This document shows, one piece after another, positions 1 through 18,414 of a stretch of 64,000 nt of DNA; position 1 is the first letter of the stretch, and each line of letters begins with the position of its first letter. A program made the position numbers and the translations under genes. The stretch comes from an uncultured Gammaproteobacteria bacterium. Its GTDB lineage: Bacteria > Patescibacteriota > Patescibacteriia > UBA1558 > S5-K13. The stretch is taken from positions 8,458 to 72,457 of the forward strand of contig CAYRHT010000002.1 of assembly GCA_964424195.1 (NCBI GenBank), given 5' to 3'. A model generated the notes under the pieces. That model was not told the origin of the DNA. It was given only the letters and a program-made list of their open reading frames with translations, and ran no database searches.

Positions 1-3000
1 GGTAATTCTAATTCTGGGGAAAATAGAGAATTAAGAGTTTATGGTTATTTAACTGCTGATACTGCTAGTCGCTATACCTCTTTAAAAGTAGATGATACTA
101 ATGATGAATTTTTAATTACTGTAGACCCTAGTATTTTAATGGGAGCAGCAATTCAATTAGCTGATGCAGCTGGAGCTACAGAATTTAGAGTTCGAGATAG
201 TGCTGGTACAGAAGTATTTTCTGTAGATAGTGATGGTGATGTTGAAGCTAATAAGGTTGGAATTAATGTTGCTCCTTCAGCTACTTTAGATATTCAAGGT
301 GATGCTGGTCAGACTAATGATTTATTTGCCATTGCTAGCTCCACTGGTCAAGAATATTTAGCAATGTCAAATTTAGGTAAAACTGTTATAACTGGCAAAG
401 TTGTTAATCCAAATCATGCTGGTGTGATTGAAGACGGTGATGGTGGAGCTGATTTGGAAGAGGCTTATACTGTGGCTGTTTCTGGAGATTATGCTTATGT
501 TGGCAATATGGGCGGTGAGTCTATTGAGATAGTTGATATATCAGATCCAACAAATCCAACCCATCTTTCTAATTTAGCTGACGGTGGTGTTTCTGCCCCT
601 TATTTTACTTCTACAGTATCTGTAGTTGTCTCCGGAGATTATTTGTATGTTTTGTCTTTAGATGGAAATGGAACTTTAAGTATTGTAGATATTTCTAATC
701 CGGCTAATCCTACTTTGAATGGATATATTAAAACTGGTAGTGGTGGAGCAAATTTTTTTAATTCTGATCAATTATATATTTACAAGAATTTTGCCTATAT
801 TACTTATAGTAGCGGATTAGCGATAATAAATGTTTCTGACCCTTATAATCCAACTTGGGCTGATAGTATTGACGATGGTGAGGGAGGAGCTCAATTAGAA
901 GGTGCTTACGGTCTCTATGTAACTAACGACTATGCTTATATAGGAGCTGATGATACTAATGCTTTCGAAATAGTTGATGTTTCTGATCCTTATAATCCAG
1001 TCCATGCTGGTTATTTAGCTGACGGTGGAGCTGGCGCTCCTTATATTGACAATACTTATTCAGTATATGTGTCTGGTAACTATGCTTATTTAGTAGATTA
1101 TACTAGCGGTGCTTTAGAAATAATAGACATTTCTGATCCAACTAGCCCTACTCATGTTGGTAGTTTATTAGATGGCGGAGGAAGTGCTCCTTATTTAAAT
1201 GGAGCGGCATCAATTAAAGTAGCTGGTAGTTATGCTTATATTTCTAGTGTTAGCGGTGCTTTAGAAATAATAGACATTTCTGATCCAGCTAATCCTACTC
1301 ATGTTGGTAGTTTATTAGATGGTGATGGAGGTGTTATGTTAGGGGGTTCTTATAATTTGGATATTTCTGGTAATTATGTTTATATGGTTGCCATGGATGA
1401 TAGTGCTTTAAATATTATAGATATTTCGGGAGTAGAAATATCAAATACAGAAATTGGTTCAGCTAAGATAGATTCATTACAAGTAATGAATAGAGCTCAA
1501 TTTAATCAAGAATTATATGTCAGAGATTCTTTAAGTGTTGGTGGCGGAGCTGGCTTTGGTGGGGCAGTAGTAATTAATATGACTACAACTTCTACAGAAA
1601 TGGGAATCTCTGCTTTGAGTGTCACAGCTACTACTTCTGATAGTTTAGTAAGTTTTAATCAAAAAGGAAGTGGAGATATATTTACTCTTCAAGATGCTGG
1701 AACAAATGTATTTACAGTCGCTGATGGTGGTAATGTTGATATTAGTGGCAATGTTGGTATTAGTACTTCAACACCTTGGGCTCATTTATCAGTAGAGAGT
1801 CAAGGTTCTTTGCCAGGCTTAGTTGTTTCAGATACTTCTAATAACACTGATTTTATTGTAGCTAGTGATGGTCGAGTCGGTATGGGAACTGCTAGTCTGG
1901 GGGAAAATAACTTATATGTTTATAATAGTGAAGCAAATGTAACATTTGGTGATGAGAATAATAGTATAAATTTTAATATCATAGATGAATGGCCTAAGAT
2001 AATTGGAGATTCTAGCTCTGTTGGAGATTGGGCACTTGGTGTTTATGATAGTCTCTCAGAAGAGCATGTGTCATTATCAACAACAAATGATTATGCACTT
2101 CTTTTTGGTACTAATGATAATGAAAGAATGCGTTTAGATACAAGTGGATATTTAGGAATAGCCACTACTACTCCTTGGGGGCAATTATCAGTAGAGGGAC
2201 AAGGTTCTTCACCTAGTTTTGTTATTTCAGACACTTCTAATAATACAGATTTGGTAGTTACTAATACAGGATTTGTAGGGATTGGAAAGTCCAATCCTTC
2301 TTATACTCTAGATGTCTATGCTGGCAGCGGAGTAAGATTTCATGATGATGCTCCTGATGATAGCTATTTAACCTTTGCTGAAGAATTAGGAGATCATTGG
2401 CCAAATATTAAAGGCTATTCAAATGGTAATGCTGATTGGATTTTAGGTGTTTATGAAGAATTTAGTGAAGAAATGAGTCTTTTAACTCATACTAATGATC
2501 CTTTACATTTGGGAACTAATAATACCCAGCGGTTGACAATTGAAGCTGGTGGCGATATTGGTATTGGTACTACTAATCCTCAATCCATGTTTGATGTTAA
2601 TAATCTTTTTCATGTTAGTTCTACTGGAGTAGTTTCAGCTTCAAGTACTTTAACAGCTTATGCCACTACAACTTTAGCTACAGATTTAAGAGTGGATACT
2701 GACACTTTAGTAGTTGATAGTTTTAATGATCGAGTTGGGATTGGCAATGCTAGTCCTTCTAGTGATTTACATATTGGTAGTTATGGTGTTGGAAATACTA
2801 CTTTTAGAATGGAGAGTAGTGGAAATGGATATTTTGGTATTTCGAATTATAGTGGAGAAACAAGATTCACTTCAGGAGCTGCTGCTACTAGTGATAATAT
2901 TATGACTTTTTATACTTCAGATGCTGGTTCAGAAGGTGAAGTTATGAGGATTGATCCTAGTGGTTATTTAGGTATTGGTACTTCATCTCCAACCATGCTT

Positions 3001-6000
3001 TTCCATGTTGGTTCATCTACACCTTCAAGTATAGCTTCAGCTAATTATTATAACTCTGCTTATGTAAGCGGAGATTTAGAAGTAGATGGAACTACTTATT
3101 TAGGAGGTTCTTTAAATATGGGTACTGGAGGTAATATAAATAATCTTCAAACTATAGCTTATAGTGAGGGTGATTCAACTGTATCACTTACTTCTGATTT
3201 TAATATTAAATTAGGTGATCCAGATGAAGCTAATAATGGAACTATTCTTTTTGTAGATGACGATAACGAAGAAGTATCAATAACAAAGAAATTAGTAGTA
3301 ACTGGTAATTTAGAGCTTGGTGGAAATGCAACTGTTACAGCTAGTACAGGAGATTTTACAACCGAAGGTAGATTATTAATTTCAGATGGTAGTGCAGCTT
3401 CTCCGTCTATAGCTTTTAAAGATGATTCTAATACTGGAATTTATCAATTATCAGATAATTCTATGGCTTTAGCCGTTAACGGATCAAGTGCGCTTTATTT
3501 AAATACAACTGCTATGCAAACTAAAGATCATTTACCATTTGTAAATAAATTTTATGATTTAGGCTCTTCTACTAGATATTGGCAAGAGTCTTATGCAGAG
3601 TTTTTATATCTTAATTCTGATTTAGATGCTAGTACTGCTAGTCCAGCCGTAGCTTTTGGTGATGGAGATACTGGTTTTTATGAAATAGCGGATGACCAAC
3701 TTTCTTTAGTAGCGGGAGCAAATGAATTAATAAGATTAGGTTATGATACTATTTCTTCTTCAACTCTAAGTGTGAATGAATTTTATATTAGTGGTTTAGT
3801 AGATTTAGATGTTTCTACAACTACTTATGCGATGAATATTTATAATACTTCTACTGATACTAGTGCTGGCGGATTATATGTTCAGAACGATGGTGGAGGA
3901 CTAGCTTTAGGAGTTTATGGAAATTCTGCTGAATCATTGTTTACTGTAGACTCTAATCAAACAAATATTTATAATCCAGTTAATTTTGAATCTACAGGTG
4001 ATGTTGGTATTGGTTCAGACTTAGTTTTCACAGGAACACCTGGTCACATTATTGGTGAAGGTTCCTTATATTTACAAACAGATTCTTCTTGGGAAGATTT
4101 AAATCTATATTTAAACGCATCTAATGATGGTCGAGTTTATGTTCAGGATATTTTAGAAGTTACTAGTACTACTTTAGCTATGACTGGAACTAGTACTTTT
4201 AGTGGAGGCAATGTTGGTATTGGTACTACTACTCCTTATGCTGCTTTATCCTTAGTTGATACCAACGCTGCAGTGAGTGATAATGTATTTGTAATTTCAA
4301 CTAGTACTAGTGGAGCTATATTCTCAGTTGACGGAGCTGGTAATTATTATTATGACGGTTCTGGTTCTACTCCAGCTGCTGATTATGCTGAGTACTATTA
4401 TACTAACGATACTGATTTAGAATCTGGTGAAGCAGTTTGTATTGATGTGACTCATAATAATGCAGTAGGTCGATGTATGAATGGAGCAGATGGAAATTTA
4501 ATGGGTATTGTTTCTACAGATCCTTCCATAGTTGGTAATGCTAAGCCTGGTTATGCTGAAGATGATCATTATGTAATTGTTGGTATGCTTGGACAAGTAC
4601 CAACTAGAGTTTCTAATGAAAATGGTGCAATTAGACCAGGTGATTCTTTAACTTCAGCTTCTTCAACTCCGGGATATGTAATGCGAGCTGATGCTGGAAA
4701 TCCAACTGTTGGTGTAGCTTTAGAAACATTAGAAGACGAAACTGGAGTTATTAATGTTTTAATTTCTCGAAGGAACAAGAGTTTAACTGTGGCTAAGGTA
4801 GAAGAAGTAATTATTGATCGAATAGCTCAGATGGAAATAGAGGATGAAGTAGCTATTTTAGTAGAACAGGCTGTTGGGGATTACAATTTTGCTTCAACTA
4901 CTGAGGCATTAATTGGAACAGAGATTGCTATCTTACAAGCCCAACTCGATGCTCAAGCTGAAGTTATTAATATATTACAAGGAGATGACTATACTAGTGA
5001 TGATCTTTGGGGTTTTGTAGGAGATGCTTTTGAAATTGGTGATTTTTATCAAGTAGATATTCAGGAAGCTAATTCCTATGCTATTGGTAATTTTAATGAT
5101 ATTTATGTAACCGGAGAAAATTCTGCTGGTTATGGAATTTATAATAAACTTTCTACTGCTAATGATGGTTTAGCTCAAACTGTATTTGGAAATTATAATC
5201 AATTACAGACTTCAAATCGAGAGGACACTGCTTTTGGTTCTTATATAGTCAGTTCAGTTGATACCTTAGATGGTATGCAAGTAGGACAGTATATTAATTT
5301 AGATAATTCTAATACTGAAAATTGGGCAATTATGGTTGATGCTGGTCAGACTTTCTTTGGTGATAATGTTTTAATAGGAGAACAAATGCCAGTGCTTTCT
5401 TGGTCAGATTTTAATTTAAATGGTGATGATTTATTTGTCCAAGGTGATGTAGGAATTGCTGGTAATTTATATATTGATGGTGAATTAAATGTTTTAGGAG
5501 ATGTTCAGTTCGTGGGAAATATTGAAGTAGGGGAGAATATTATTTTAGGTGGAATGCTTTTAAGCTCTAATTCTGGTTATGCAGAGATGTTAGATATTCT
5601 AGAAGATGATTATGAGTTTGGTGATCTAGTGGTAATGAATACTTCTTCGACTACTCGAGCTCGTTTAGCTGATCAAGCTAATAGTGAAATTATCTTAGGT
5701 GTCATTGCTCAAAACCCAGCTATTATAACTTCTAAAGATAAAGAGAATGGTCAGGCTGTAGTTATGTCGGGAACTACCTTGGTAAATGTTACAGCTGCTA
5801 ATGGCTTAATTAAAAAAGGTGATTATTTAACTACTGCTAATGAAATTGGTAAGGCTCAAAAAGTAACTAAAGACGGAGCTGGAATTTTAGGTATTGCTTT
5901 AGAAGACATGGAAGTGCCAACCTCTACTCCAAGTACCTTTGCTAATGATCAAATTTTAGTTCGAGTTCAATTAGGAAATTATTTTACTAGTGGAGCTAGA

Positions 6001-8682: not shown

Positions 8683-8684
8683 TT

Positions 8685-11183
8685 ATGAATAGATTAAAAC
8701 AATTAAAATATAAATACTATATTGGTGTTATTATAGCTCTGACTATTGTTTTTAGTTCTATTAATTTTGTTCAAGCTGCTACTCCTACTTATGAAAATGC
8801 ACCAACAGCCTCTGAAGTTTTAATAGTTTATAATTCAGCTTATACTACTGATTCAGATACTGATGGTACTCAGGATAGTCAAGAAATAGCTGAATATTAT
8901 GTTACAAATAGACCAGGAGTTAATATTACTTCCATTTCTACTGTTACTAGTGAAACTATTTCTCGAACTAATTATAATTCTCAAATTAGAGATCCTTTAG
9001 AAGCTTATTTAACTGCTCAAGGTTTAACAGATTCTATTAAATTTATAGTTTTAGTCAAAGGTATTCCTTTAAAGATAGTTGCTACTAATGGTGGTTCTTA
9101 TGGTTCTACAGATTATTCTTCAGTAGATTCAGCAGTTTGTTTATTATACGAAGGAGATTATGTTATTAATTGGCGACACCCTAATCCTTATTATAACGCT
9201 GATCCTAGTTATACTAAGGCTTTCCGTTTTGATACTGATCACTTTACTAATGCTTCGGGAGTTACTTTAAATTATTTGGTAACTCGAATAGATGGATATT
9301 CAGTATCAAGTATGGAAGCGATAGTAGATAGAGGAGTGGGAGCTGATACTTCTGGAAATGGTTATTGGGTGATAGATGATAATTTAAAAACTTATGATCA
9401 AATGAGTACGGCTTATACTTATTTAAGTGATTTAAGTAGAAATGTTAATCCTGATCCTTGGTCAGACACTTCTTCTTATATTACAACTAATGCTAGTGGT
9501 TCTGTTATGGGTTACACTTCTCATGGAATTCATGCTTCTATGGGTGATGGTTATGTTTCTAATAGTCCAGTTAATGCTAACTATTTAGACTTTACATTAT
9601 TGAATGGAGCAGTATTCTCTACTTATGAATCATATAATGGATATGGTTTTACTGCTCCTACTCAATCAACTCACGGGCAAGTAGCAGAGTGGATAGAAAT
9701 TGGTGGTTCTGGTGGAGTTGGTAATGTTTATGAACCTTGGGCTTCTACTATCGCTCATGAAGAAATTTTTATGCCAGAATATACTATTGGTTATACTTGG
9801 GCAGAAGCAGCTTATATGTCTTTAGCTTATATGGATTTTGTTTCAGTGGTAATTGGTGATCCTTTAATGACTATTTCAGAAATTATTGCTCCAGCATCAG
9901 TAACAGCGACTAACGCCGTGAATGGAGATAATCAAGTAGCTTTTTCTTGGACTAATCCTGTTGACGCTGATTTTGTAGGAGTAAAAGTAGTTCGAAAGAC
10001 TGGATCTTATCCAGGACATAGTGCTGATGGAACTGTTATCTACAATGGAAGTAATGAATCATATATTGATACAGATGTTGTGAATAATACTACTTATTAT
10101 TACGCAATCTTTGCCTATGATGAAGTACCTAATTATTCTAGCTTAGGAGCTGGTTCCAAAGATAATGCTACACCATCTTCAGATACTACAGCACCAGATT
10201 CAGTAACTAGTATATTTGCTAATCCCGGAAATCATCAAGTAATTTTAACTTGGACTAATCCAACTAACGCTGATTTTGTGGGAGCGAGAGTAATGCGGAA
10301 AGAAGGTTCCTATTCTAGTACTTATGATGATGGAACTTTGGTTTATGATGGATCTAGTAATTCTTGTGTTAGTTCTGGTTTAACAAATGATGTAACTTAT
10401 TATTATACTATTTTTGCTTATGATGGAACTCCTAATTATGCTACTCCGGGAGCAGGAGCTAAGACAACATCTGCTCCTTATTTAACAGAATCAGGTGCAG
10501 AAATTGATGTTCAGCCTCCGGGATCTATTTACAGTTTTTCAGCAATTCCTGGGAATGCTCAAGTTTCTTTATCTTGGACAAATCCTGATGATAGCGACTT
10601 TTCTTTAGTTAAAGTCTTACGAAGAACAGATTATTATCCTCAAAGTTTTTCTAATGGTATTTTAATAACAAGTGTTAGTAGCACTACTACTTCATATACT
10701 GATACTGATGTAGTAAATGATACAACTTATTTCTATACTGCTTTTGCTTGTGATGTTTCTTTAAATTGTTCAGTGCTAACTTCTAATGCTCAAGATTATG
10801 CTACTCCTTGTGATGGTTCTTGTTCAGATACTAGTCCAGAAACAGCTCCTACTTATTCCCTATCTGAACCAGATATTTCTCCGCCAGTAGCTATTACAAA
10901 TTTTGACGCAGTTGCTGGTGATGAGAGTGCTAGTTTAACTTGGACAAATCCATTTGGAGATGATGATTGGGTTGGTACAATAGTAGTTAGAAAAACAGAT
11001 TCCTATCCTAATAGTTATACTGATGGTACTCAGATATATAACGGTCAAAATGGAGGATTTTATACTGATACAGGTTTAAGTAATGGAACTACTTATTATT
11101 ATGGAGCCTTTGCGTATGATACGGCTGGTAATTATACTGCTTCTAGTACTGACTCTAGTGATTTAGCAACACCAAGTGAATAA
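8685..11183 (+). CDS. Secreted protein with five fibronectin-type-III-like repeats and an N-terminal signal peptide.
   Basis: The leader 'MNRLKQLKYKYYIGVIIALTIVFSSINFVQA' ends in an AxA-like site. The unit 'W(T/S)NPxDxDFVGxxVxRKxGSYP...YxDTxxxNxTTYYYxxFAYD' is repeated five times. The start lies 2 nt after the stop of the giant gene. Confidence 0.75.
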   Translation: MNRLKQLKYKYYIGVIIALTIVFSSINFVQAATPTYENAPTASEVLIVYNSAYTTDSDTDGTQDSQEIAEYYVTNRPGVNITSISTVTSETISRTNYNSQIRDPLEAYLTAQGLTDSIKFIVLVKGIPLKIVATNGGSYGSTDYSSVDSAVCLLYEGDYVINWRHPNPYYNADPSYTKAFRFDTDHFTNASGVTLNYLVTRIDGYSVSSMEAIVDRGVGADTSGNGYWVIDDNLKTYDQMSTAYTYLSDLSRNVNPDPWSDTSSYITTNASGSVMGYTSHGIHASMGDGYVSNSPVNANYLDFTLLNGAVFSTYESYNGYGFTAPTQSTHGQVAEWIEIGGSGGVGNVYEPWASTIAHEEIFMPEYTIGYTWAEAAYMSLAYMDFVSVVIGDPLMTISEIIAPASVTATNAVNGDNQVAFSWTNPVDADFVGVKVVRKTGSYPGHSADGTVIYNGSNESYIDTDVVNNTTYYYAIFAYDEVPNYSSLGAGSKDNATPSSDTTAPDSVTSIFANPGNHQVILTWTNPTNADFVGARVMRKEGSYSSTYDDGTLVYDGSSNSCVSSGLTNDVTYYYTIFAYDGTPNYATPGAGAKTTSAPYLTESGAEIDVQPPGSIYSFSAIPGNAQVSLSWTNPDDSDFSLVKVLRRTDYYPQSFSNGILITSVSSTTTSYTDTDVVNDTTYFYTAFACDVSLNCSVLTSNAQDYATPCDGSCSDTSPETAPTYSLSEPDISPPVAITNFDAVAGDESASLTWTNPFGDDDWVGTIVVRKTDSYPNSYTDGTQIYNGQNGGFYTDTGLSNGTTYYYGAFAYDTAGNYTASSTDSSDLATPSE

Positions 11184-11185
11184 AT

Positions 11186-12163
11186 ATGAAATTAAACAAA
11201 CAAAAAATAGTTCTATTGATAATTTTAATGCTAATAGTAGTAATCTCTTTATTTTTTATATTCAAGAAAGAAAAATATTTTATACTATATATAGAAGGTT
11301 TAGATCAGGGAGTTTTAAAGCAATATTCAACAGAAGATTTACCAAATTTGAAGTCTTTGTTCAGTGCCGATTTAAATTCAGAAATTGCTTTAAACAAGGA
11401 GTCAAGTTTTTTAACAATTTTATCAGGGGAGTATAAATATGGATCTTTTGATCAGAAGGATCCAAATAAATATATTGTTAGTAAAAAAAAGGTAGATAAT
11501 TTAGGATTATTTTATCAAACAAATCTATATCAAAATGTTAGAGAAAATAATTTATCTTTTAGATTTTTAGAAAGAATAGAAAAAATTTTAAAGCTGGATA
11601 AATTTAAAGAGGATATAATTGTTTATTTAACTAATTTGGAAAATAATGATTTAAATTCTTATCAAGAGATTGATGGCTTAGTAGCTCAAATAGAAAAGAA
11701 AATCGGTTTTAACACTAGATTATTAATTATTACTCCTAATTATGAAGAAGAAAATAGTTTTAGAGAAATTAATGAAAACTTAATAGATAAAGGATTTTTA
11801 ACTTGTCCCGATAACTTTCAAGACTTGTCAGAATGTGATTTAGCTAATTCTTTTGCTTATAGTCCTGCTCCAGGTGAAGTATATATTAACAAAAAAGGTC
11901 GAGAAGAGTTGGGTCGAGTAGATTGGGATTATGAAGGAGTCATTGAAGATACAGCTTATGTTTTAACTTCTGAAATAGAAGAGAAAGATTTAAGGATGTA
12001 TAAGAGTAGAAATTATTTTCAACAAAAAGATGTACCAGAAATATTTGTTTTTGAAAAACAAAGGGAAGAAAAGGGTATAATGCTATCGAACAAAAAATTT
12101 ACTCAGGATAAATATGATTATTTAGAAATTTTAAACTTAATTAACTTAATTAAAAATGATTAA
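11186..12163 (+). CDS. Hypothetical membrane-anchored protein of the surface-protein operon.
   Basis: N-terminal 'MKLNKQK' followed by a hydrophobic helix. It is tightly coupled to its neighbours, lying 2 nt after the previous stop and overlapping the next gene by 8 nt. There is a weak, unverified resemblance to the N-terminal core of the alkaline-phosphatase superfamily. Confidence 0.5.
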   Translation: MKLNKQKIVLLIILMLIVVISLFFIFKKEKYFILYIEGLDQGVLKQYSTEDLPNLKSLFSADLNSEIALNKESSFLTILSGEYKYGSFDQKDPNKYIVSKKKVDNLGLFYQTNLYQNVRENNLSFRFLERIEKILKLDKFKEDIIVYLTNLENNDLNSYQEIDGLVAQIEKKIGFNTRLLIITPNYEEENSFREINENLIDKGFLTCPDNFQDLSECDLANSFAYSPAPGEVYINKKGREELGRVDWDYEGVIEDTAYVLTSEIEEKDLRMYKSRNYFQQKDVPEIFVFEKQREEKGIMLSNKKFTQDKYDYLEILNLINLIKND

Positions 12164-15100
12164 TAAATTAAAACAATTAGATTATCGTTATTATATTGGA
12201 ATAATAGTTATTGCTATTGCAATAGTTTTTGGTTTAATTTTTATTTTACGAGCTCCAAAGTCAGCTGAAGCTGAATGGTTTAATGATGGCTGGTATTATC
12301 GAAAATCTATTCCAGTCACTAATAATACTACAACAGAAATGAACGTTTATGTTTCTGTTACCATTGATACTTCAGATACTACTAAATTTCAAACAGATTG
12401 TGATGATGTGCGTTTTACTAATAGTGCTGGTAATAGATTTCCTTATTATCTTGTTTCAGGTTGTGGTACAGACACAACAGTAATTCATGTTTATTTTAAT
12501 AACCTTGATGCTGGTTTACAAAATATTTATTATTATTATGGTAATTCATCTGTAGAACAAGGTTCTGTTGGTTCAAATTTTTCTACGGTAGCTTCTGATT
12601 ATACAATTGGAACTATTACTAGTGAGGAACAATCTGAAGTACCAATAGCTTATTGGTCATTTGATGAAGGTTATGGAACTATTGCTCATGATAATACTTC
12701 TAGTAAAAATCATGGGACTTTAACAAATATGACCACCACTGGTATTTCTACAGCTTGGGTAGATGGTAAGTTCGGAAAAGGATTGAAGTTCGGTGATCAT
12801 AATTATGATAATTTAGCATTAGAAGAGGAGATAGGTTTTAGTGATGGAGATGAACATACTTTATCTTTTTGGATAAAGAATGATGGTACAAATACTTACA
12901 TCACTGTAGCTGGGAAAGAAACTGAGAATGGAAATTCAATTTATATTATTGATAATAGTGTAAATTATATATTTTATTTTCGAAGTGCAACTCAAAAACA
13001 ATTAGTGTCAGGAGTGGATACAACAGTTTTGTTTGATAAGAATTGGCATCAAGTTGTAATGACTGTGAATTCTAGTAAGCTATGTTCAGTTTATTTTGAT
13101 GGTAAATTACAGGGATCAGCAACTTTGACTACTTCAGATATGATTTATAGTTCTATTGGTTCAGGAATAAATGCTTTTCAAGTTGATGGCATAATGGACG
13201 AAGTTAAAATATATAATTATGTCTTATCAGCTTCGCAAGTTAAAAAATCTTATTCTTCTAGGTCTAAGAATTTTACAGCTATGAATTTATCTAAGTCAAA
13301 AAAAGATGCTCAGAATAAAAGAAATGTGGGTCTAGTTGGTTTCTGGAAAATGGATGAGGATTCTTGGGATAGTACAGCCAATGAAGTAATTGATTATTCA
13401 GGACTAGGAAATCATGGTACCAGTTATGCTGATGCTACTACAACTTCTAGTGCTAGATATAATAGAGCGGGAGAATTTGATGGAACGGGAGATTATATTA
13501 GTTGTGGTAGTGATAGTAGTTTAGATATGGGTGACGGCAGTTTAACTATTGGAACATGGATTAAAGCAGATAATGTGGATAATTATATGGGTATTATTAA
13601 TAAGAGTGCTTTGGGAGGTAGTCTTGGTTGGGGCATGGGAATAACTAATGGCAAAGTTAGATGTGAAATCCATGATGGAAGTAGAGCTTGGACTGAATAT
13701 GATACAACAATTGAAATCGATACTTGGTATTATATTATGGCTGTATTTGATAGAGGGGATGATAAAATAAAAGTTTATATTAACGGTAATAAAGAAAGTA
13801 CGGAGCTAGATATAACAGGTAAGGGATCAATAACTGGTTCTAACTGTTACATAGGTAGTCTTAATACTTCTGCTTGGATTTTCGATGGACAAGTTGATCA
13901 TGTTAAAGTTTGGAAACGAGCATTGACTACTAAAGAAATATCAGAAGAATATGTTACTGGACCAGCTCCAGTTGCTTATTGGTCCATGGATCAGATTGAC
14001 GGTACTACGGTTGTTGATCAGTCGGGAATGGGTAATGATTGTACTATGGATGGAGGAGTAACTAAAAATAATAATTGGAAGCCTGGGAAAGTAGGTCAGG
14101 CTTTATCATTTAAAGACGATGCTGATGCTCATCTTGATTGTGGTAATGATTCTAGTTTAGATATTACTGGAGCTATTACCATAGAATCTTGGGTTAAACC
14201 AGATTCATATGATTTTGCTTATCCTATGTTTCTTTCTAAGGCAGGATCATATTATAGAACTGGTTTAGCTGCTGCAGGTGATGGAAGAGTATTTTTTAGA
14301 GTGAGAGTTGGTGGTGCGTATAAAACAGCCTATTCCTCTTCAGACGTCCCTTTGAATGAATGGACTCATGTTATAGGAACTTATGATGGAGAATATATGA
14401 GAGTTTATGTAAATGGTATTTTAAATGGAACTCCCTTAGCTCTATCAGGTAATATTGAGACTAATGTTGCTTCATTAATAGTAGGTTCAGCTTCTTTTGA
14501 TGGAGATTTAGATGAAATTAAACTTTATAATTATGCTCTTACTCCATATCAAATAGCTCAAGCATATGGTAATGGAGCTCCACTTACTTATTGGTCATTT
14601 GATGAGGGACAAGGAACTACTGCTTATGATAGTTTAGGGAGTAAAAATCATGGAACTTTAACTAATATGACTACTACCGGAGTTTCTTCAGCTTGGGTAG
14701 ATGGAAAGTTTGGAAAGGGTTTGAGATTTGATGGTAGTGATGATTATATTGATGCAGGTGATTTTTTAGATAATGGTGAAACAACGGTTAGTTTATGGTT
14801 TAGAAGTAGTTATCAAGGAACACATAATGGTCTAATAGATTTTGCTGGATCTAGTGGTATTGGACATTTTGATTTTAATCATTCTGGAGACGATAGACCT
14901 ATTTTATATTTAGATTCTACTAATTTTCGTTATTTTGATGCTTCAGCCACAGATTATATGGATGGAGAATGGCATTATTTAGTACTATATATACCAGGGT
15001 CAGACATGGATGATGTTTCAAGTGCAACATTAAGTATTGATAATGTTAATATACCATCATCTAGCACATCTGCCGCCGGAACTCAGGATACTTGGAATGA

Positions 15101-17228
15101 TTTATATATTGGTAAAACTAATTATGGTTCTTTTAATGGTGATCTAGATGAAGTTAAAATATATAATTATCAACTTACTCCTTTTGATATTGAAAAAGAG
15201 TTTGTCTCTTCTAGAGGAAAGAAACAAACTGGGCTTAATTTATCTAAATCAGAACAAGATAATGAGAGTGCTCAAGTCGAAGGTTTAGTAGCTCATTGGA
15301 AAATGGATGAAGCTTCTTGGGATGGTACAGCTGATGAGGTAATAGATTATTCAGGCTTAGGAAATCATGGAGTGTCAGCAGATGATGCTCATACTACAAC
15401 TACTGCTAGGTATAATAGAGCGGGGGGATTTGATGGAACAGATGATAGGATTACGATTGCCAATGATGATTCTTTAAATCCATCATCGGCAATTACTATC
15501 TCAGCTTGGTTTTATGCTAATTCTTTTGATGGTGATAGTATTAGTGGCAATTGTATTTTATCAAAGGGTGCTAGTACTAATGGTTATTGGTTAGTTGTGG
15601 GTAGTGGAAAAGCTCATTTTAAATGGGGAAGTTATTTAACTAATGATCTTGATTCAGATACCTTTAATCCAACTACTGGAGAATGGCATCATATTTTAAT
15701 ATCTTATGATGGAAATCATGGTATTTTTTATTATGATGGAAATGAAGTTGGAGAAGGAGATATGACTAAGGGTGATAACAATACTAGTTCTATGTCTCTG
15801 GGTTATTATATTAGTCCAGTCCCAAATCATTTTGATGGAGCTTTAGATAATGTGAAGATTTGGAATCGTGCTTTGTCTCCTACAGAAGCAGTAAATGAAT
15901 ATCATAAAATATTATCTCCAGTTGGTTATTGGTCAATGGATAATATTGATGGAATTACAGTTACTGATGATTCAGGAATGGGAAATGATTGTACTATGGA
16001 TGGAGAATTAAACAAGGCTGATGATTGGAAGCCAGGAAAAGTAGGGCAATCTCTATTTTTTGAAAATTGTTATAATGGAGGTCAATGTGAAGGGCATCAC
16101 TTAGAATGTGGTAATGATTCTAGTTTAGATATCGAAGGGGCAATTACTGTTGAGCAATGGGTAAAACCAAACTCCTTTACTTATTATCCAATCTTTATGA
16201 GAAAACCAAGCGATCTTTATCGGATTGGTTTAAGAGGTACAAATCCTACAGAAAATTTAGGAGATGGTCGGGTATATTGGAGAATTAAGATTGGTGGAGT
16301 AGCTAAAGCTAAGAGTGGTGCTATTTATATTCCTTCAAATGAGTGGAGTCATGTAGTTGGGACTTATGATGGAGAATATATGAGGCTTTATATAAATGGT
16401 GTGTTAGACGGTGCACCTTATGCTGTGACTGGGGATATAGATGTTTCTACTTATGATTTGATAGTAGGCGCTTATAATCTTTCCGGTAATTATACTTTTG
16501 ATGGTGACATGGATGAAGTTAAACTTTATAATTATGCTCTTACTTCTCATCAAGTAGCTCAAGCATATAATAATGGTAAACCGATTGCTCATTGGACATT
16601 TAATGAAGGAGAAGGTGATGTAGTAAAAAATAAAATAAATAATACTTATCATGGAGATATAGTTAATGCTACTTATGTTTCTGGTAAATCTGATACTGCT
16701 TTAAATTTTGATGGAGATGGAGATTATATTGATTTTGATAATACTGAAGATGATACTTTTTATCCTACTACTACTTATGAATCAGTAACTATTGCTACTT
16801 GGATGAAATTAAATACAGCCAGTCAAGAATCAGCTGTGGTTGGAAGATTTGATTCAGTTGGATCTAATCATTGGTATAATTATGGTTCGGGTATAAAATA
16901 TGTTAATGGAGCTGTGAAAGTGATGGGAATGTCTAATGCAAATAATCCTTTATTAAGTTATGATTTAACAGATACAAGTTCTTGGCATCATGTTGTAGCT
17001 ATTGTGAATACAACAGATGGTAAGTTATATGTAGACGGTATTTTGAGAGATAGCGGAGATTTAAGTTCAAATGGCGGTTATGATTTTGCTATTGGAGCTC
17101 AAACTAATGCTGGAACTAGTTTTTACTTTGATGGGCAATTGGATGAAGTAAAAATATGGAATTATGGCTTAAGTCCATTAGATGTTCAAAATGATTATAA
17201 TCTAGGGAAAGGGGTGTTTTTTAAGTAG
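12156..17228 (+). CDS. Secreted giant protein made of seven concanavalin-A-like/LamG (Laminin_G_3-type) lectin domains.
   Basis: The leader 'MINKLKQLDYRYYIGIIVIAIAIVFGLIFILRAPKSAEA' is followed by repeated LamG signatures ('YWSFDEG', 'NHGTLTNMTTTG', 'WVDGKFGKGL', 'DGxLDEVK(I/L)YNYxLT'). A three-domain supermodule occurs twice. Confidence 0.75.
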   Translation: MINKLKQLDYRYYIGIIVIAIAIVFGLIFILRAPKSAEAEWFNDGWYYRKSIPVTNNTTTEMNVYVSVTIDTSDTTKFQTDCDDVRFTNSAGNRFPYYLVSGCGTDTTVIHVYFNNLDAGLQNIYYYYGNSSVEQGSVGSNFSTVASDYTIGTITSEEQSEVPIAYWSFDEGYGTIAHDNTSSKNHGTLTNMTTTGISTAWVDGKFGKGLKFGDHNYDNLALEEEIGFSDGDEHTLSFWIKNDGTNTYITVAGKETENGNSIYIIDNSVNYIFYFRSATQKQLVSGVDTTVLFDKNWHQVVMTVNSSKLCSVYFDGKLQGSATLTTSDMIYSSIGSGINAFQVDGIMDEVKIYNYVLSASQVKKSYSSRSKNFTAMNLSKSKKDAQNKRNVGLVGFWKMDEDSWDSTANEVIDYSGLGNHGTSYADATTTSSARYNRAGEFDGTGDYISCGSDSSLDMGDGSLTIGTWIKADNVDNYMGIINKSALGGSLGWGMGITNGKVRCEIHDGSRAWTEYDTTIEIDTWYYIMAVFDRGDDKIKVYINGNKESTELDITGKGSITGSNCYIGSLNTSAWIFDGQVDHVKVWKRALTTKEISEEYVTGPAPVAYWSMDQIDGTTVVDQSGMGNDCTMDGGVTKNNNWKPGKVGQALSFKDDADAHLDCGNDSSLDITGAITIESWVKPDSYDFAYPMFLSKAGSYYRTGLAAAGDGRVFFRVRVGGAYKTAYSSSDVPLNEWTHVIGTYDGEYMRVYVNGILNGTPLALSGNIETNVASLIVGSASFDGDLDEIKLYNYALTPYQIAQAYGNGAPLTYWSFDEGQGTTAYDSLGSKNHGTLTNMTTTGVSSAWVDGKFGKGLRFDGSDDYIDAGDFLDNGETTVSLWFRSSYQGTHNGLIDFAGSSGIGHFDFNHSGDDRPILYLDSTNFRYFDASATDYMDGEWHYLVLYIPGSDMDDVSSATLSIDNVNIPSSSTSAAGTQDTWNDLYIGKTNYGSFNGDLDEVKIYNYQLTPFDIEKEFVSSRGKKQTGLNLSKSEQDNESAQVEGLVAHWKMDEASWDGTADEVIDYSGLGNHGVSADDAHTTTTARYNRAGGFDGTDDRITIANDDSLNPSSAITISAWFYANSFDGDSISGNCILSKGASTNGYWLVVGSGKAHFKWGSYLTNDLDSDTFNPTTGEWHHILISYDGNHGIFYYDGNEVGEGDMTKGDNNTSSMSLGYYISPVPNHFDGALDNVKIWNRALSPTEAVNEYHKILSPVGYWSMDNIDGITVTDDSGMGNDCTMDGELNKADDWKPGKVGQSLFFENCYNGGQCEGHHLECGNDSSLDIEGAITVEQWVKPNSFTYYPIFMRKPSDLYRIGLRGTNPTENLGDGRVYWRIKIGGVAKAKSGAIYIPSNEWSHVVGTYDGEYMRLYINGVLDGAPYAVTGDIDVSTYDLIVGAYNLSGNYTFDGDMDEVKLYNYALTSHQVAQAYNNGKPIAHWTFNEGEGDVVKNKINNTYHGDIVNATYVSGKSDTALNFDGDGDYIDFDNTEDDTFYPTTTYESVTIATWMKLNTASQESAVVGRFDSVGSNHWYNYGSGIKYVNGAVKVMGMSNANNPLLSYDLTDTSSWHHVVAIVNTTDGKLYVDGILRDSGDLSSNGGYDFAIGAQTNAGTSFYFDGQLDEVKIWNYGLSPLDVQNDYNLGKGVFFK

Positions 17229-17331
17229 TATAGCTCTCTTTAAAAAAATAAAATTCTATGCTAATATAATAGTATATTTAAATAATTTACAATTAAATCC
17301 CTTATTTAAAGGGTAAAAGGAAGATAAAATT

Positions 17332-17808
17332 ATGGACAAAAAAATAACAGCAGATGTCAAAATTTCTGACTCTGGAAAGAAAAAAGGATTTTTTAGATGG
17401 TTAATTGTTTTAATCATTGTTCTTTTAATTATTCTTGCTGGTCTCTTTGTTGTTTCTAAAGTTACTGGTTGGGATATTTTAGGTTTTAATGAAAATGTTG
17501 ACGGAGAATGGCAAGCAGTATTCCTATCAAATGGCCAAGTCTATTTTGGACAAGCTAAGAATGAAAATTCAGATACGGTTAATTTAAAAGATATTTATTA
17601 TTTACAAGTTACTAAGGACTTGCAACCAGCAGAGGGTAATACTGAACAAAATGAATTATCTTTAGTTAAGTTAGGAAACGAATTACATGGACCGGAAGAT
17701 CAAATGAGAATCAATAGAGCTCATATTTTATTTATTGAAGATTTGAAACCAGAAGGTAAAGTAGTAAGGGCAATTCAAAAATATAAAGAAAATGAAGTAG
17801 TAGAGTAA
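17332..17808 (+). CDS. Hypothetical protein anchored by a single transmembrane helix.
   Basis: A basic N-terminus is followed by the hydrophobic helix 'WLIVLIIVLLIILAGLFVV'. A rho-independent terminator lies downstream. Confidence 0.45.
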   Translation: MDKKITADVKISDSGKKKGFFRWLIVLIIVLLIILAGLFVVSKVTGWDILGFNENVDGEWQAVFLSNGQVYFGQAKNENSDTVNLKDIYYLQVTKDLQPAEGNTEQNELSLVKLGNELHGPEDQMRINRAHILFIEDLKPEGKVVRAIQKYKENEVVE

Positions 17809-17825
17809 TCTATTTAAACTATATA

Positions 17826-17858
17826 AAACAGAGTCATTTATTTGACTCTGTTTTTTTA
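17826..17858 (+). terminator. Rho-independent terminator after the 17332 gene.
   Basis: 'aaacagagtcatttatttgactctgttttttt': a stem followed by a T-run. Confidence 0.7.
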
Positions 17859-17869
17859 TCTCTAACCAT

Positions 17870-17903
17870 AAAGTACAAAGTACTACTATATACTTTACAC
17901 TTT
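17870..17903 (+). promoter_or_regulatory. Imperfect 13-nt dyad, a candidate operator for the downstream MerR-like gene.
   Basis: 'AAAGTACAAAGTA' (17870-17882) and 'TACTTTACACTTT' (17891-17903) are reverse complements except for 2 positions. A TATAAT box follows at 17912-17917. Confidence 0.4.
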
Positions 17904-17965
17904 ATATATTTTATAATATAATTATAAACAGAGGAGAGGATAAATTTTTTATTTCTAATTTTCTA

Positions 17966-18193
17966 ATGCATTTATTAAAAATAGGACAATTAGCTCAAGA
18001 GATAGATAGATTACCATCAGCTATTCATTTCTATACTCAAGAAGGTTTGATTAAACCCAACTCATATACTAAAGGTGGGTATCGTTTGTATGAAAAAAAT
18101 CAGGCTATTAAAAGAATTAAATTAATAGAAAGGTTACAATTTCAAAAGAGATGGAGGATTGAAGAAATAAAAACTTACTTAAAAAATAAATAA
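17966..18193 (+). CDS. Small MerR-family HTH transcriptional regulator (75 aa).
   Basis: The N-terminal 'LKIGQLAQEIDRLPSAIHFYTQEGLIKP' fits the MerR HTH pattern. An imperfect 13-nt dyad lies upstream. Confidence 0.5.
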   Translation: MHLLKIGQLAQEIDRLPSAIHFYTQEGLIKPNSYTKGGYRLYEKNQAIKRIKLIERLQFQKRWRIEEIKTYLKNK

Positions 18194-18414
18194 TATAAGA
18201 ATATGAAAAAAAACTGTTATCAATGTGATAATTATGATTGGACTAAGCAAAAGATTAAAAATAGGACTACTATTGTTAGAAGTCATCGTTCTCAGAAGGC
18301 TAGTTTATTAGATCATATTAGGTCTTTGCTTTTCTAACTATTTATTTGCTTTATTGTTAATTTTGGTGTTAAATAAAGTAATTAATAGTAAATTTGTAAT
18401 ATAATATAATTTTT

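What the first reader, a model, noticed from the sequence alone, without database searches (positions are those of the whole stretch)
1..17228. 17-kb operon of giant repetitive surface proteins with a propeller, tail-fibre-like, pectin-lyase-fold, Fn3 and 7xLamG layout; a candidate host-attachment apparatus
Four consecutive + strand genes are packed with 2-nt gaps or an 8-nt overlap, which implies one transcript. Gene 1 is more than 2,893 aa. Gene 2 is 832 aa with five Fn3-like repeats. Gene 3 is 325 aa. Gene 4 is 1,690 aa with seven LamG domains. Gene 1 combines three module types.
- LVIVD-type blades ('LEIVDISDPxNPT', about 9 copies).
- A reiterated ~125-aa 'GNVGIGTTTPxxxLxV...DWxLGVY' module reminiscent of phage tail-fibre repeats.
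- Two parallel beta-helix modules whose starts resemble pectinesterase ('A(K)xGGDF(S/T)xIxxAL...V(K)xGxYxE').
This combination of carbohydrate-binding and carbohydrate-cleaving folds on megadalton secreted proteins, in an otherwise minimal housekeeping genome, is the kind of machinery an episymbiont would use to bind or digest a host envelope. To my knowledge the specific combination is not a described system.
Basis: partly seen in the sequence, partly recalled or inferred. Interest (0 to 1): 0.75.

Follow-up and report, generated by a model that had tools for sequence, protein, structure and literature searches.

The report
Giant surface fibre operon in Patescibacteria
A tiny-genome (about 0.95 Mb) Patescibacteria bacterium spends about 2.5% of its DNA on a five-gene operon for a half-megadalton, membrane-anchored fibre built like a phage tail fibre, plus lectin-rich partner proteins; it most likely makes contact with other cells, but it is one lineage's version of a common kind of protein.

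Summary
Four tightly packed + strand genes carry LVIVD, pectinesterase-like, Fn3-like and 7x LamG modules. Corrections:
- Gene 1 is cut by the window edge. Its full length is 4,629-4,830 aa.
- There are 7 LVIVD blades, not 9, and 4 Fn3-like repeats, not 5.
- A fifth gene (17332-17808) and a terminator-like hairpin (17825-17854) close the unit.

New findings:
- Gene 1 is a membrane-anchored fibre. It has a collagen-like run, 11-12 'VGIGTxxPxxxL' motifs that align to the trimeric beta-helix fibres of Bdellovibrio (MAT fibres), two seven-bladed propellers (FG-GAP and LVIVD), and a pair of phage-tailspike autochaperone (Peptidase G2) domains.
- The pectinesterase match covers only the first 70 profile positions, and the catalytic motifs are absent. 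'Carbohydrate-cleaving' is therefore unsupported.
- Gene 3 is a degenerate alkaline-phosphatase-superfamily protein.

The gene order recurs in three close relatives only. Giant LVIVD/autochaperone fibre genes are common in Patescibacteria. The adhesion role is inferred, not shown. Verdict: a new variant of a known kind, of moderate interest.

The parts
1..8682 (+). Gene 1, C-terminal 2,893 aa of a 4,629-4,830 aa fibre protein (509 kDa, pI 4.05 for the 4,830-aa form). The part upstream of the window holds a weak HTH_17-like cytoplasmic domain, one transmembrane segment, a collagen-like GXY run, fibre repeats and FG-GAP repeats.
1..405 (+). Fibre segment before the LVIVD propeller (gene 1 aa 1-135). 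It contains one capping-loop-like motif, VGINVAPSATL, at aa 86.
406..1470 (+). LVIVD beta-propeller with seven ~49-aa blades (gene 1 aa 136-490).
   Evidence: Pfam PF08309 E 1.7e-41; self-similarity; seven '[LFI]xI[IV][DN][IV]S' motifs; DNA repeat family D1
1678..3105 (+). Fibre modules carrying the 'VGIGTxxPxxxL' motif (gene 1 aa 560-1035). The ~133-aa repeats lie at aa 578-731 and 711-866, with a partial copy at 961-1035. A last motif lies at aa 1405 (nt 4213-4248).
   Evidence: self-similarity; phmmer to Bdellovibrio MAT fibres Bd1334 (8OML, E 2.8e-5) and Bd3182 (8OJN, E 4.6e-3); motif count; PMC10769870
4339..4800 (+). Autochaperone (Peptidase G2 / IMC-like) domain, copy 1 (gene 1 aa ~1447-1600). 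The motif AA|DYAEYY lies at aa 1459-1466 (nt 4375-4398), and D1461/E1464 are both present.
5548..5955 (+). Autochaperone-like domain, copy 2 (gene 1 aa ~1850-1985). The motif is SGYAEML: the Asp is replaced by Gly and the Glu is kept.
6010..6720 (+). Pectinesterase-like module 1 (gene 1 aa 2004-~2240). Only the N-terminal cap and first rungs match. It has Asn-rich rung-like repeats and no pectinesterase catalytic motifs.
6976..8100 (+). Pectinesterase-like module 2 (gene 1 aa 2326-~2700). It has no pectinesterase catalytic motifs.
8098..8679 (+). C-terminal ~190-aa domain of gene 1 with no family or structure match. It is a candidate distal tip. The C-terminal ~800-1,500 aa of gene 1 are 71-84% identical in the three relatives.
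8685..11183 (+). Gene 2 (832 aa, 89.7 kDa) with an N-terminal signal-like segment.
8766..9899 (+). TIGR03790 domain of gene 2 (aa 28-405) with a gingipain (peptidase C25) fold. The family-invariant residues in gene 2 numbering are G126, P128, D231, S316, E350 and P351. There is no invariant Cys or His.
9876..11180 (+). Four Fn3-like repeats of gene 2, starting at about aa 398, 499, 608 and 730.
11186..12163 (+). Gene 3 (325 aa). It is membrane-anchored and a remote, degenerate member of the alkaline-phosphatase / type I phosphodiesterase superfamily that has lost its metal ligands.
12156..17228 (+). Gene 4 (1,690 aa, 185.5 kDa). It has a signal-like leader, DUF2341 (aa 81-140, nt 12396-12575) and seven Laminin_G_3 domains. 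The LamG array contains a duplicated three-domain block (DNA repeats ~1,950 nt apart).
17332..17808 (+). Gene 5 (158 aa), a single-pass membrane protein with no family. It is 82-83% identical and in the same position in relatives.
17825..17854 (+). Terminator-like hairpin (12-bp stem followed by a T run) that closes the unit. A promoter-like site for the next gene follows at 17894-17922 (11 of 12 matches).

Best explanation
The locus is a five-gene operon of a Patescibacteria (probably Paceibacteria/Parcubacteria-type) bacterium. It encodes a cell-surface fibre and its secreted or anchored partner proteins.

Gene 1 most likely works as follows (inferred):
- It is inserted in the cytoplasmic membrane by one N-terminal transmembrane segment, with a short HTH-like domain inside the cell.
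- It trimerises outside the cell. The evidence is the collagen-like GXY run, the intertwined beta-helix shaft marked by 11-12 'VGIGTxxPxxxL' motifs, and the phage-tailspike-type autochaperone domains.
- It displays binding modules along and at the end of the shaft: a seven-bladed FG-GAP propeller, a seven-bladed LVIVD propeller, two non-catalytic pectinesterase-like modules and an unknown C-terminal domain.

The partner proteins are:
- Gene 4 presents seven lectin-type LamG domains.
- Gene 2 holds a gingipain-fold domain on a stalk of four Fn3-like repeats.
- Genes 3 and 5 are small membrane-anchored proteins. Gene 3 is a dead alkaline-phosphatase-fold protein. Both probably serve assembly or anchoring.

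The most likely job is adhesion to and recognition of surface glycans or proteins of another cell (a host) or of a substrate. This parallels phage tail fibres and the Bdellovibrio MAT fibres.

Shown: the domain content, the membrane/secretion signals, the operon layout and the synteny in three relatives.
Inferred: trimer formation, surface display, ligand type and host contact.
For: - Layout: 2-nt gaps and one 8-nt overlap. There is no terminator-like site until 17825-17854.
- Every product has one N-terminal hydrophobic segment.
- Gene 1 has a collagen-like run at aa 409-453 of the full protein.
- Gene 1 matches the solved trimeric fibres Bd1334 and Bd3182 through the capping-loop motif (PMC10769870). 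There are 11 such motifs.
- A profile of the paired domain hits a tailspike chaperone domain (28nb, E 2.8e-7) and the phi29 preneck appendage C-terminal fragment (3gqh, E 2e-5). 'DYAEY' aligns to residue 1 of that fragment.
- The FG-GAP count is 7 in the longest assembly, and there are 7 LVIVD blades.
- Gene 4 has 7 LamG domains plus DUF2341.
- Synteny: the giant gene, the TIGR03790/Fn3 gene, the gene 3 homologue, LamG genes and the small membrane protein recur in L004, L005 and L007.
- Single giant Patescibacteria proteins fuse LVIVD, DUF2341, LamG and Fn3 (P0066 and P0076).
- The operon takes 23.5 kb, or 2.5%, of a 952-kb contig.
- The literature reads giant Patescibacteria surface proteins as host-contact candidates (PMC8080830, PMC11809585).
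Against: - No experiment or expression data bear on function.
- No host is known for this organism.
- The collagen match is below Pfam's cutoff (18.7 vs 27.2 bits), and trimerisation was not modelled.
- The beta-helix fold of the two C-terminal modules was not verified by structure prediction.
- Gene 3 and gene 5 have no assignable role.
- The cluster is absent next to ileS in 37 other Patescibacteria-type genomes. TIGR03790 homologues elsewhere stand alone. The conserved synteny may therefore reflect shared ancestry in one narrow lineage more than functional coupling.
- If autochaperone copy 1 self-cleaves, the C-terminal 1,433 aa would not stay covalently attached to the fibre.
Confidence: 0.6

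Rival explanations
1. The proteins are a general envelope or matrix structure. They would be a constitutive surface coat, S-layer-associated fibrils or biofilm/particle adhesins that bind abiotic or polymeric substrates, not a device for recognising a host cell.
For: - The locus is embedded among housekeeping genes (smpB, infC, ileS, recO, tgt) with no mobile or variable features.
- Gene 2's product has exactly the same sequence on contigs read from 24 of the 37 indexed blocks of the collection.
- LamG, Fn3, FG-GAP and LVIVD are generic binding modules.
- No diversity-generating repeat pair lies in the region.
Against: - The architecture (membrane anchor, trimeric shaft, autochaperone, distal modules) is that of receptor-binding fibres.
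- Gene 4 (37-46% identity) and gene 3 (47-60%) diverge fast between relatives, while the gene 1 C-terminus and gene 5 stay at 71-84%. This fits ligand-facing proteins under diversifying pressure.
Confidence: 0.2
2. The proteins form an extracellular polymer-degrading or nutrient-scavenging complex. LamG domains would act as carbohydrate-binding modules, and a hydrolase would cleave polysaccharide or protein.
For: - The TIGR03790 domain of gene 2 has a protease fold.
- It has an invariant Ser, Asp and Glu.
- In other bacteria it is fused to dockerin, T9SS sorting domains and PEP-CTERM, as secreted enzymes often are.
- Gene 1 has pectinesterase-like module starts.
Against: - Pectinesterase catalytic motifs are absent from both modules.
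- The gingipain Cys-His dyad is not conserved in the TIGR03790 family.
- Gene 3 has lost the metal ligands of its enzyme superfamily.
- No glycoside hydrolase, lyase or recognised peptidase family was detected in any of the five proteins.
Confidence: 0.12
3. The locus is a remnant of a prophage or tailocin whose tail fibre genes were left in the chromosome.
For: Gene 1 shares fibre motifs and an autochaperone domain with phage tailspikes. PHROG families hit the LVIVD and LamG regions.
Against: - No other phage genes lie nearby.
- Gene 1 has a membrane anchor and is 4,830 aa long.
- No relative of the autochaperone domain was found in viral contigs or phage genomes at single-sequence sensitivity.
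- Homologous giant genes are widespread chromosomal genes of Patescibacteria.
Confidence: 0.03

Closest known systems
Bdellovibrio bacteriovorus mosaic adhesive trimer (MAT) fibres (Bd1334, Bd3182; PDB 8OML, 8OJN; PMC10769870)
   Same: Both share a reiterated capping-loop motif of an intertwined trimeric beta-helix shaft ('VGIGTxxPxxxL'), with direct sequence alignment. Both are mosaic, with varied binding domains carried on a fibre. Both occur in a bacterium that lives at the expense of other bacteria. Both carry a phage-type intramolecular chaperone.
   Different: MAT proteins are about 600-1,150 aa, have a cleaved signal peptide, and end either in an S74 chaperone or in a tip domain. Gene 1 is 4,830 aa with an N-terminal transmembrane anchor, a collagen-like run and two beta-propellers. 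Its chaperone is of the G2 type, not S74, is duplicated and internal, and is followed by ~900 aa of further modules. No S74 domain was detected.
Phage tailspike / preneck appendage proteins with a C-terminal autochaperone (phi29 gp12, PDB 3GQH; tailspike Dpo31 domain D4, PDB 28nb; MEROPS family G2, Pfam PF11962)
   Same: The paired ~140-aa domain is homologous (profile E 2e-5 and 2.8e-7). The 'D-x-x-E' motif of copy 1 aligns to the first residue of the released phi29 fragment. The domain follows a fibre region.
   Different: In phages the domain is terminal and single. Here it is internal and duplicated, and copy 2 lacks the Asp. Cleavage is untested. PF11962 itself does not score on gene 1; the link goes through homologues P0051 and P0062.
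Giant LVIVD 'beta-propeller fold lactonase family' proteins of Patescibacteria (e.g. P0027, P0041, P0050, P0051)
   Same: They share LVIVD propellers, fibre repeats and the same paired autochaperone domain near the C-terminus. They are 2,000-5,000 aa long. They are encoded in operons next to a secreted Fn3-repeat protein.
   Different: Their partner genes differ: they have TPR and CarboxypepD_reg proteins and lack TIGR03790, DUF2341/LamG and gene 3 homologues. The ~900-aa C-terminal extension of gene 1 (two pectinesterase-like modules plus a tip) has no counterpart among the 120 best hits.
Gingipains RgpB/Kgp and PorU (peptidase family C25, clan CD)
   Different: There is no sequence-level match to solved structures. 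The Cys-His dyad is not conserved; instead there is an invariant Ser, Asp and Glu. Activity is unknown.
Giant surface proteins of cultured or described Patescibacteria (Vampirococcus lugosii, Patescibacterium danicum)
   Same: They are proteins of >4,000 aa with adhesion-type domains, including DUF2341, in a reduced genome, and are read as host-contact proteins (PMC8080830, PMC11809585).
   Different: Those papers list other domain sets (WD40, PKD, DUF11, FhaB). No shared operon or fibre/autochaperone anatomy was described there.

Membership tests
LVIVD repeat beta-propeller (PF08309) | Score above Pfam's gathering threshold, and enough repeats to close a propeller | tested here: met
   139.7 bits vs cutoff 20.2; seven blades by self-similarity and motif count
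FG-GAP (integrin-alpha type) propeller | FG-GAP repeats, seven of them for a closed propeller | tested here: met
   This feature lies outside the window. Precomputed PF01839 hits. Assemblies of 4,420/4,629/4,696/4,830 aa carry 1/4/5/7 'DVNGDGYDD' units; the longest has seven.
MAT / S74-type trimeric beta-helix fibre | Capping-loop motif of the trimeric beta-helix | tested here: met
   phmmer alignments to 8OML (E 2.8e-5) and 8OJN (E 4.6e-3) across the motif; 11 motifs in the full protein
MAT / S74-type trimeric beta-helix fibre | S74 chaperone-protease domain with the SDxxxK motif (S74 subgroup) | tested here: not met
   No PF13884 hit at E<=1 on any segment. One isolated 'SDFNIK' string exists without domain support.
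MAT / S74-type trimeric beta-helix fibre | Conserved ~130-aa beta-rich domain directly after a signal peptide; trimer shown experimentally | not tested
   Gene 1 instead starts with an HTH-like domain and a transmembrane anchor. No multimer modelling was available.
Peptidase G2 / intramolecular chaperone (PF11962) | Homologous domain | tested here: met
   A profile of 23 copies hits 3gqh (E 2e-5) and 28nb (E 2.8e-7). PF11962 scores on the same domain in homologues P0051 and P0062. It does not score directly on gene 1.
Peptidase G2 / intramolecular chaperone (PF11962) | Asp and Glu of the 'D-x-x-E' self-cleavage site. Their role in phi29 gp12 is recalled from the literature, not checked here. 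| tested here: inconclusive
   Copy 1 has AADYAEYY (both residues). Copy 2 has SGYAEML (Asp lost). Glu is invariant and Asp nearly invariant in the family alignment.
Peptidase G2 / intramolecular chaperone (PF11962) | C-terminal position and actual autocleavage | tested here: not met
   On position: both copies are internal, and 1,433 aa follow the putative site. Cleavage itself cannot be tested with these tools.
Pectinesterase (PF01095, CE8) | Full-length match and the catalytic Gln/Asp/Asp/Arg motifs (QDT, DFIFG, RxW) | tested here: not met
   Only profile positions 2-70 of 298 match. None of the motifs occurs in either module.
Right-handed parallel beta-helix (pectin lyase fold) | Predicted or solved beta-helix structure | not tested
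Beta_helix/NosD families do not score. The only evidence is the pectinesterase-type N-terminal cap and Asn-rich rung-like repeats in module 1.
TIGR03790 family | Score above the NCBIfam cutoff | tested here: met
   125.4 bits vs cutoff 67, gene 2 aa 62-382
Peptidase C25 (gingipain), clan CD | Fold | tested here: met
Peptidase C25 (gingipain), clan CD | Catalytic His-Cys dyad | tested here: not met
   No invariant Cys or His in 62 family members. His of 'GYTSHG' is present in 23 of 62. An invariant Ser sits in 'YES(F/Y)N'. The equivalence of that Ser to the gingipain Cys rests on my recollection of the RgpB sequence and was not checked by superposition.
Type I phosphodiesterase / alkaline phosphatase superfamily (PF01663) | Homology to the family | tested here: met
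   A profile of gene 3 and its 3 homologues finds 46 proteins (E 1e-57 to 8e-4). All ten scanned carry PF01663. PF01663 does not score on gene 3 itself.
Type I phosphodiesterase / alkaline phosphatase superfamily (PF01663) | Metal-binding Asp/His residues | tested here: not met
   In the alignment with canonical members, 'DG' becomes 'EG', the 'ETDRxxH' block is deleted, 'SDHG' becomes 'TPNY' or similar, and the C-terminal 'GDH' is deleted.
Laminin_G_3 / DUF2341 proteins | Scores above Pfam cutoffs | tested here: met
   Laminin_G_3 493 bits in 7 stretches; DUF2341 34.2 bits vs cutoff 23.4
TafC fimbrial tip protein (NF052521) | Score above the NCBIfam cutoff, and the pilin-like N-domain | tested here: not met
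   210 bits vs cutoff 410. Only the LamG part of the profile (149-361 of 373) matches (PMC11821415).
Collagen triple helix (PF01391) | GXY repeats scoring above cutoff | tested here: inconclusive
   The uninterrupted G-x-x run covers aa 409-453 of the full protein and scores 18.7 bits vs cutoff 27.2.

The most novel reading that the evidence does not exclude
The fibre is a self-processing device derived from phage tailspikes. Autocleavage at AA|DYAE (window nt 4381; D3398 of the 4,830-aa form) would release or arm a 1,433-aa C-terminal 'head' made of the second chaperone copy, two beta-helix-like modules and a tip. This head would be delivered to or left on the partner cell. The membrane stub, with its cytoplasmic HTH-like domain, would act as a contact sensor in the manner of the eukaryotic membrane-bound transcription factor MyRF. 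Gene 2 would be a serine variant of the clan CD (gingipain) fold that processes the fibre or the partner's envelope.
Probability: 0.1. Interest if true: 0.8.

Novelty: new variant of a known kind. Interest (0 to 1): 0.45.

Why it matters
How ultrasmall Patescibacteria find and hold other cells is largely unknown beyond type IV pili in Saccharibacteria. This locus gives a concrete, testable anatomy for one of their giant surface proteins: a membrane-anchored fibre that is probably trimeric and shares its shaft motif and folding chaperone with phage tail fibres and the prey-recognition fibres of Bdellovibrio. The same core (LVIVD propeller, shaft, paired chaperone domain) recurs in many Patescibacteria giants. 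What is learnt here would therefore transfer to a large class of unannotated proteins that NCBI currently names 'beta-propeller fold lactonase family'. Separately, the uncharacterised TIGR03790 family turns out to have a gingipain fold without the Cys-His dyad. That gives a starting point for a family found in many phyla.

Tried and rejected
- **Structure of gene 3.** With its 4-sequence alignment the model was unusable (pLDDT 46). Its family was assigned by profile search instead.
- **Gene 2 vs solved structures.** The TIGR03790 profile and gene 2 itself gave nothing useful at sequence level. Only fold comparison worked.
- **Pfam on nine segments of full-length gene 1 at E<=1.** This left most of the shaft, both chaperone copies and the C-terminus unannotated.
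- **HTH-like N-terminus.** It stayed weak: HTH_17 E 0.051, no match to solved structures, and no real similarity to the MerR-like gene downstream. I do not rely on it.
- **ileS-anchored synteny test.** None of 37 genomes carried homologues of genes 2-5 within 10 kb. The operon could not be shown to be widespread.
- **Context of the two nearest TIGR03790 homologues outside the lineage.** Both are stand-alone genes.
- **Phage links.** The single-sequence scan and tblastn against 50,697 phage genomes found nothing.
- **Diversity-generating repeats.** None was found; there were only intragenic domain repeats.
- **tRNA/tmRNA and Rfam search of the long region upstream of gene 1.** This found only the tmRNA next to smpB.
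- **TafC fimbrial membership.** Rejected: the score is below cutoff and only the LamG domain matches.
- **A functional pectinesterase.** Rejected.
Full report
**1. What is in the sequence**

The region holds + strand ORFs at 139..8682, 8685-11183, 11186-12163 and 12156-17228. The first ORF's frame is open from base 1. Translation from base 1 shows no stop, so gene 1 is cut by the window edge.

An exact look-up of gene 2 places the window on a 952-kb JGI contig and a 295-kb ENA contig. There gene 1 is called at 4,830 and 4,629 aa. The ENA locus (L003) supplies the missing 5' part. It shows divergent smpB, infC, rpmI and rplT upstream of a 1.15-kb non-coding stretch.

Downstream of gene 4 lies a fifth small gene (17332-17808). 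No terminator-like site occurs on the + strand before it. A 12-bp hairpin plus T run follows at 17825-17854, and then a near-consensus promoter-like site at 17894-17922. The unit is therefore most likely five genes and ends beyond the stated coordinate 17228.

The rest of the window is housekeeping: ileS, recO, tgt, L25, pgk, eno, iPGM and priA. IleS is 52-65% identical to those of Paceibacterota, Parcubacteria, Campbellbacteria and 'Patescibacteria group' genomes. The Patescibacteria assignment is thus supported, although the species itself is not among the representatives.

**2.

- Pfam gives LVIVD at E 1.7e-41.
- Pectinesterase matches at E 8.7e-11, but only profile positions 2-70 of 298.
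- Gene 4 has Laminin_G_3 at E 1.6e-149 in seven stretches, plus DUF2341.
- Gene 2 has weak Fn3-type families.
- Self-comparison gives seven ~49-aa LVIVD blades (aa 136-490).
- It also gives a ~133-aa repeat at aa 578-731 and 711-866, with a partial copy at 961-1035.
- A repeated ~120-aa domain lies at aa 1462-1578 and 1860-1971.
- Two homologous module starts lie at aa 2004 and 2326.
- Motif counts confirm seven LVIVD blades, not nine.
- Gene 2 has four Fn3-like repeats, not five.

Neither pectinesterase-like module contains the QDT, DFIFG or RxW motifs of active pectinesterases. Only the N-terminal cap and first rungs are shared. The 'carbohydrate-cleaving' reading is not supported.

**3. Gene 1 is a membrane-anchored fibre related to phage tail fibres**

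The full protein starts with a weak HTH_17-like segment (E 0.051). It has a single hydrophobic segment at aa 147-175. An uninterrupted GXY run follows at aa 409-453, below the Pfam cutoff.

A search of all solved structures finds only two families of hits, both from Bdellovibrio: Bd1334 (8OML, E 2.8e-5) and Bd3182 (8OJN, E 4.6e-3). The alignment runs across '...ERMRI...G.VGIGT..P...L.V'. The paper that solved them describes these proteins as mosaic adhesive trimers. They are intertwined trimeric beta-helix fibres on the predator surface with varied tips, and the motif forms their capping loops (PMC10769870). The full gene 1 protein has 11 clean copies of the motif.

The repeated ~140-aa domain occurs as a pair, about 270-400 aa apart, near the C-terminus of dozens of other giant LVIVD proteins of Patescibacteria. 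In two of them Pfam calls it Peptidase_G2, the autochaperone of phage tailspikes. A profile of 23 copies hits the chaperone domain of tailspike Dpo31 (28nb, E 2.8e-7). It also hits the C-terminal fragment of the phi29 preneck appendage (3gqh, E 2e-5). The family's 'DYAEY' aligns to residue 1 of that released fragment.

Copy 1 of gene 1 reads AA|DYAEYY (aa 1459-1466 of the window part). Copy 2 reads SGYAEML and has lost the Asp. From memory of the phi29 work, the Asp and Glu of D-x-x-E are the self-cleavage residues; I did not verify this here. Whether gene 1 cleaves itself is open. If it does, the last 1,433 aa would be a separate chain.

**4. Two propellers, and an assembly caveat**

The seven members of gene 1's 90% cluster differ only in the number of 67-71-aa FG-GAP units. 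The 4,420-, 4,629-, 4,696- and 4,830-aa forms have 1, 4, 5 and 7 units. Three further calls start inside the repeats. Seven units make a complete integrin-type propeller. The shorter forms are most simply explained by repeat collapse in short-read assemblies, though true variation is not excluded. The protein then has two seven-bladed propellers. At 4,830 aa it weighs 509 kDa with a pI of 4.05.

**5. Gene 2**

The family has no invariant Cys or His. Its invariant residues are Gly, Pro, Asp, Ser, Glu and Pro. The Ser sits in '(T/S)(Y/W)ES(F/Y)N', and in the gene 2 subfamily a mostly conserved His sits in 'GY.SHG'. By my recollection of the RgpB sequence these two blocks correspond to the His and Cys blocks of gingipain; no superposition was possible.

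Homologues elsewhere are fused to T9SS sorting domains, dockerin, PKD or PEP-CTERM. The domain is therefore a widespread extracellular module. No paper in the searched library mentions TIGR03790.

**6. Genes 3, 4 and 5**

*Gene 3* has only three non-identical homologues among 5.8 billion proteins. A profile search reaches 46 proteins, and all ten scanned carry the type I phosphodiesterase family. In the alignment the gene 3 group has replaced or deleted every metal-ligand block. It is a membrane-anchored pseudoenzyme. Its structure prediction failed.

*Gene 4* is DUF2341 plus seven LamG domains. A three-domain block is duplicated, with DNA repeats about 1,950 nt apart. Its hit to the haloarchaeal fimbrial tip protein TafC is below cutoff and limited to the LamG domain.

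*Gene 5* is a 158-aa single-pass membrane protein without a family.

**7. Conservation**

All three gene 3 homologues lie in the same arrangement: giant gene, TIGR03790/Fn3 gene, gene 3 homologue, one or two LamG genes, then the small membrane protein, a MerR-like gene and a 44-aa ORF. One locus has an extra DUF2341/LamG gene, and another has fragmented LamG genes.

| Gene | Identity in the relatives |
|---|---|
| Gene 1 C-terminal part | 71-84% |
| Gene 2 | 69-79% |
| Gene 5 | 82-83% |
| Gene 3 | 47-60% |
| Gene 4 | 37-46% |

None of 37 ileS-anchored loci from other Patescibacteria-type genomes has any of genes 2-5 within 10 kb. The nearest outside TIGR03790 genes stand alone. In another Patescibacteria lineage the homologous giant gene sits in a different conserved cluster. 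That cluster has three ~300-350-aa unknown proteins, an Fn3/CarboxypepD_reg protein that matches gene 2 (E ~1e-21, probably through the Fn3-like repeats) and a TPR protein. Two giant Patescibacteria proteins fuse LVIVD, DUF2341, LamG and Fn3 in one chain.

The core fibre is thus a common kind in the phylum. The partner set is lineage-specific.

**8. Interpretation**

The best-supported reading is a surface fibre with accessory lectin-type and Fn3-stalked proteins, used for adhesion and recognition. I put this at 0.6.

The analogy to MAT fibres and phage tail fibres, together with the literature on giant Patescibacteria proteins (PMC8080830, PMC11809585), makes contact with another cell the most likely purpose. 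No result here tests that.

A general coat or matrix role (0.2) and an enzymatic scavenging role centred on gene 2 (0.12) remain open. A prophage remnant is unlikely (0.03).

No paper in the searched library combines Patescibacteria with intramolecular chaperones, tailspikes or MAT fibres. The fibre/autochaperone anatomy of these giants therefore seems undescribed there. That says nothing about papers outside the library.

**9. Verdict**

The locus is a new variant of a known kind (giant modular surface proteins of Patescibacteria; trimeric autochaperone-bearing fibres). It has two useful by-products: the gingipain fold of TIGR03790, and the phage-type chaperone pair shared by many Patescibacteria giants. 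Interest 0.45.

Noticed in passing
window 8673-8725 and 12147-12199: The translation-start regions and leader peptides of gene 2 and gene 4 share a 53-nt stretch at 77% identity ('N(R/K)LKQLxY(K/R)YYIG...'). Orthologues of gene 2 in relatives have a different leader, whereas DUF2341 genes there keep this one. The gene 2 leader therefore looks copied from a DUF2341 gene.
   Followed up: partly
window 12635-16615: Gene 4 contains a duplicated block of three LamG domains. Six pairs of DNA repeats lie 1,938-2,001 nt apart at 72-83% identity.
   Followed up: partly
L003 13800-14700 (outside the window; FG-GAP region of gene 1): Assemblies of the same protein differ only in FG-GAP unit number (1, 4, 5 or 7), and three gene calls start inside the repeats. 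This is probably repeat collapse in short-read assemblies, and possibly real copy-number variation.
   Followed up: partly
L003 8844-9988 (upstream of gene 1, outside the window): This is a 1.15-kb stretch without a called gene or Rfam match, which is unusually long for so compact a genome. The tmRNA gene lies further upstream at L003 7899-8286 (- strand), next to smpB.
   Followed up: partly
window 21939-24017: A 692-aa DUF11-repeat protein sits between recO and tgt. It is another likely surface protein in the same neighbourhood.
   Followed up: no
window 17966-18193 and 18203-18337: A 75-aa MerR-type gene and a 44-aa ORF follow the operon. They are found in the same place in two relatives (L004, L007). 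Whether they regulate the operon is unknown.
   Followed up: no
window 1-18000 vs 26000-50000: G+C is 0.31-0.355 over most of the operon (one 2-kb window falls to 0.284), against 0.23-0.30 in most of the rest of the window. This may reflect the Gly/Ala/Thr/Ser-rich proteins rather than foreign origin.
   Followed up: no
L048, L049, L050 (loci of P0027, P0041, P0050): In another Patescibacteria lineage the giant LVIVD/autochaperone gene lies in a different conserved cluster. That cluster has three unknown ~300-350-aa secreted proteins, a ~1,100-aa Fn3/CarboxypepD_reg protein and an ~820-aa TPR protein, with T4SS_pilin genes a few kb downstream.
   Followed up: partly
L005 5232-8420 and L007 8570-9688: In one relative the gene 2 orthologue carries an inserted LVIVD segment (1,062 aa). 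In another the gene 4 orthologue is split into 201- and 140-aa pieces, either through decay or through assembly error.
   Followed up: no
L008-L040 (record titles): Several genomes whose IleS is 53-61% identical to this Patescibacteria-type IleS are titled 'uncultured Gammaproteobacteria', 'Bdellovibrionales' or 'Nanoarchaeia'. These are probably mislabelled metagenome bins.
   Followed up: no
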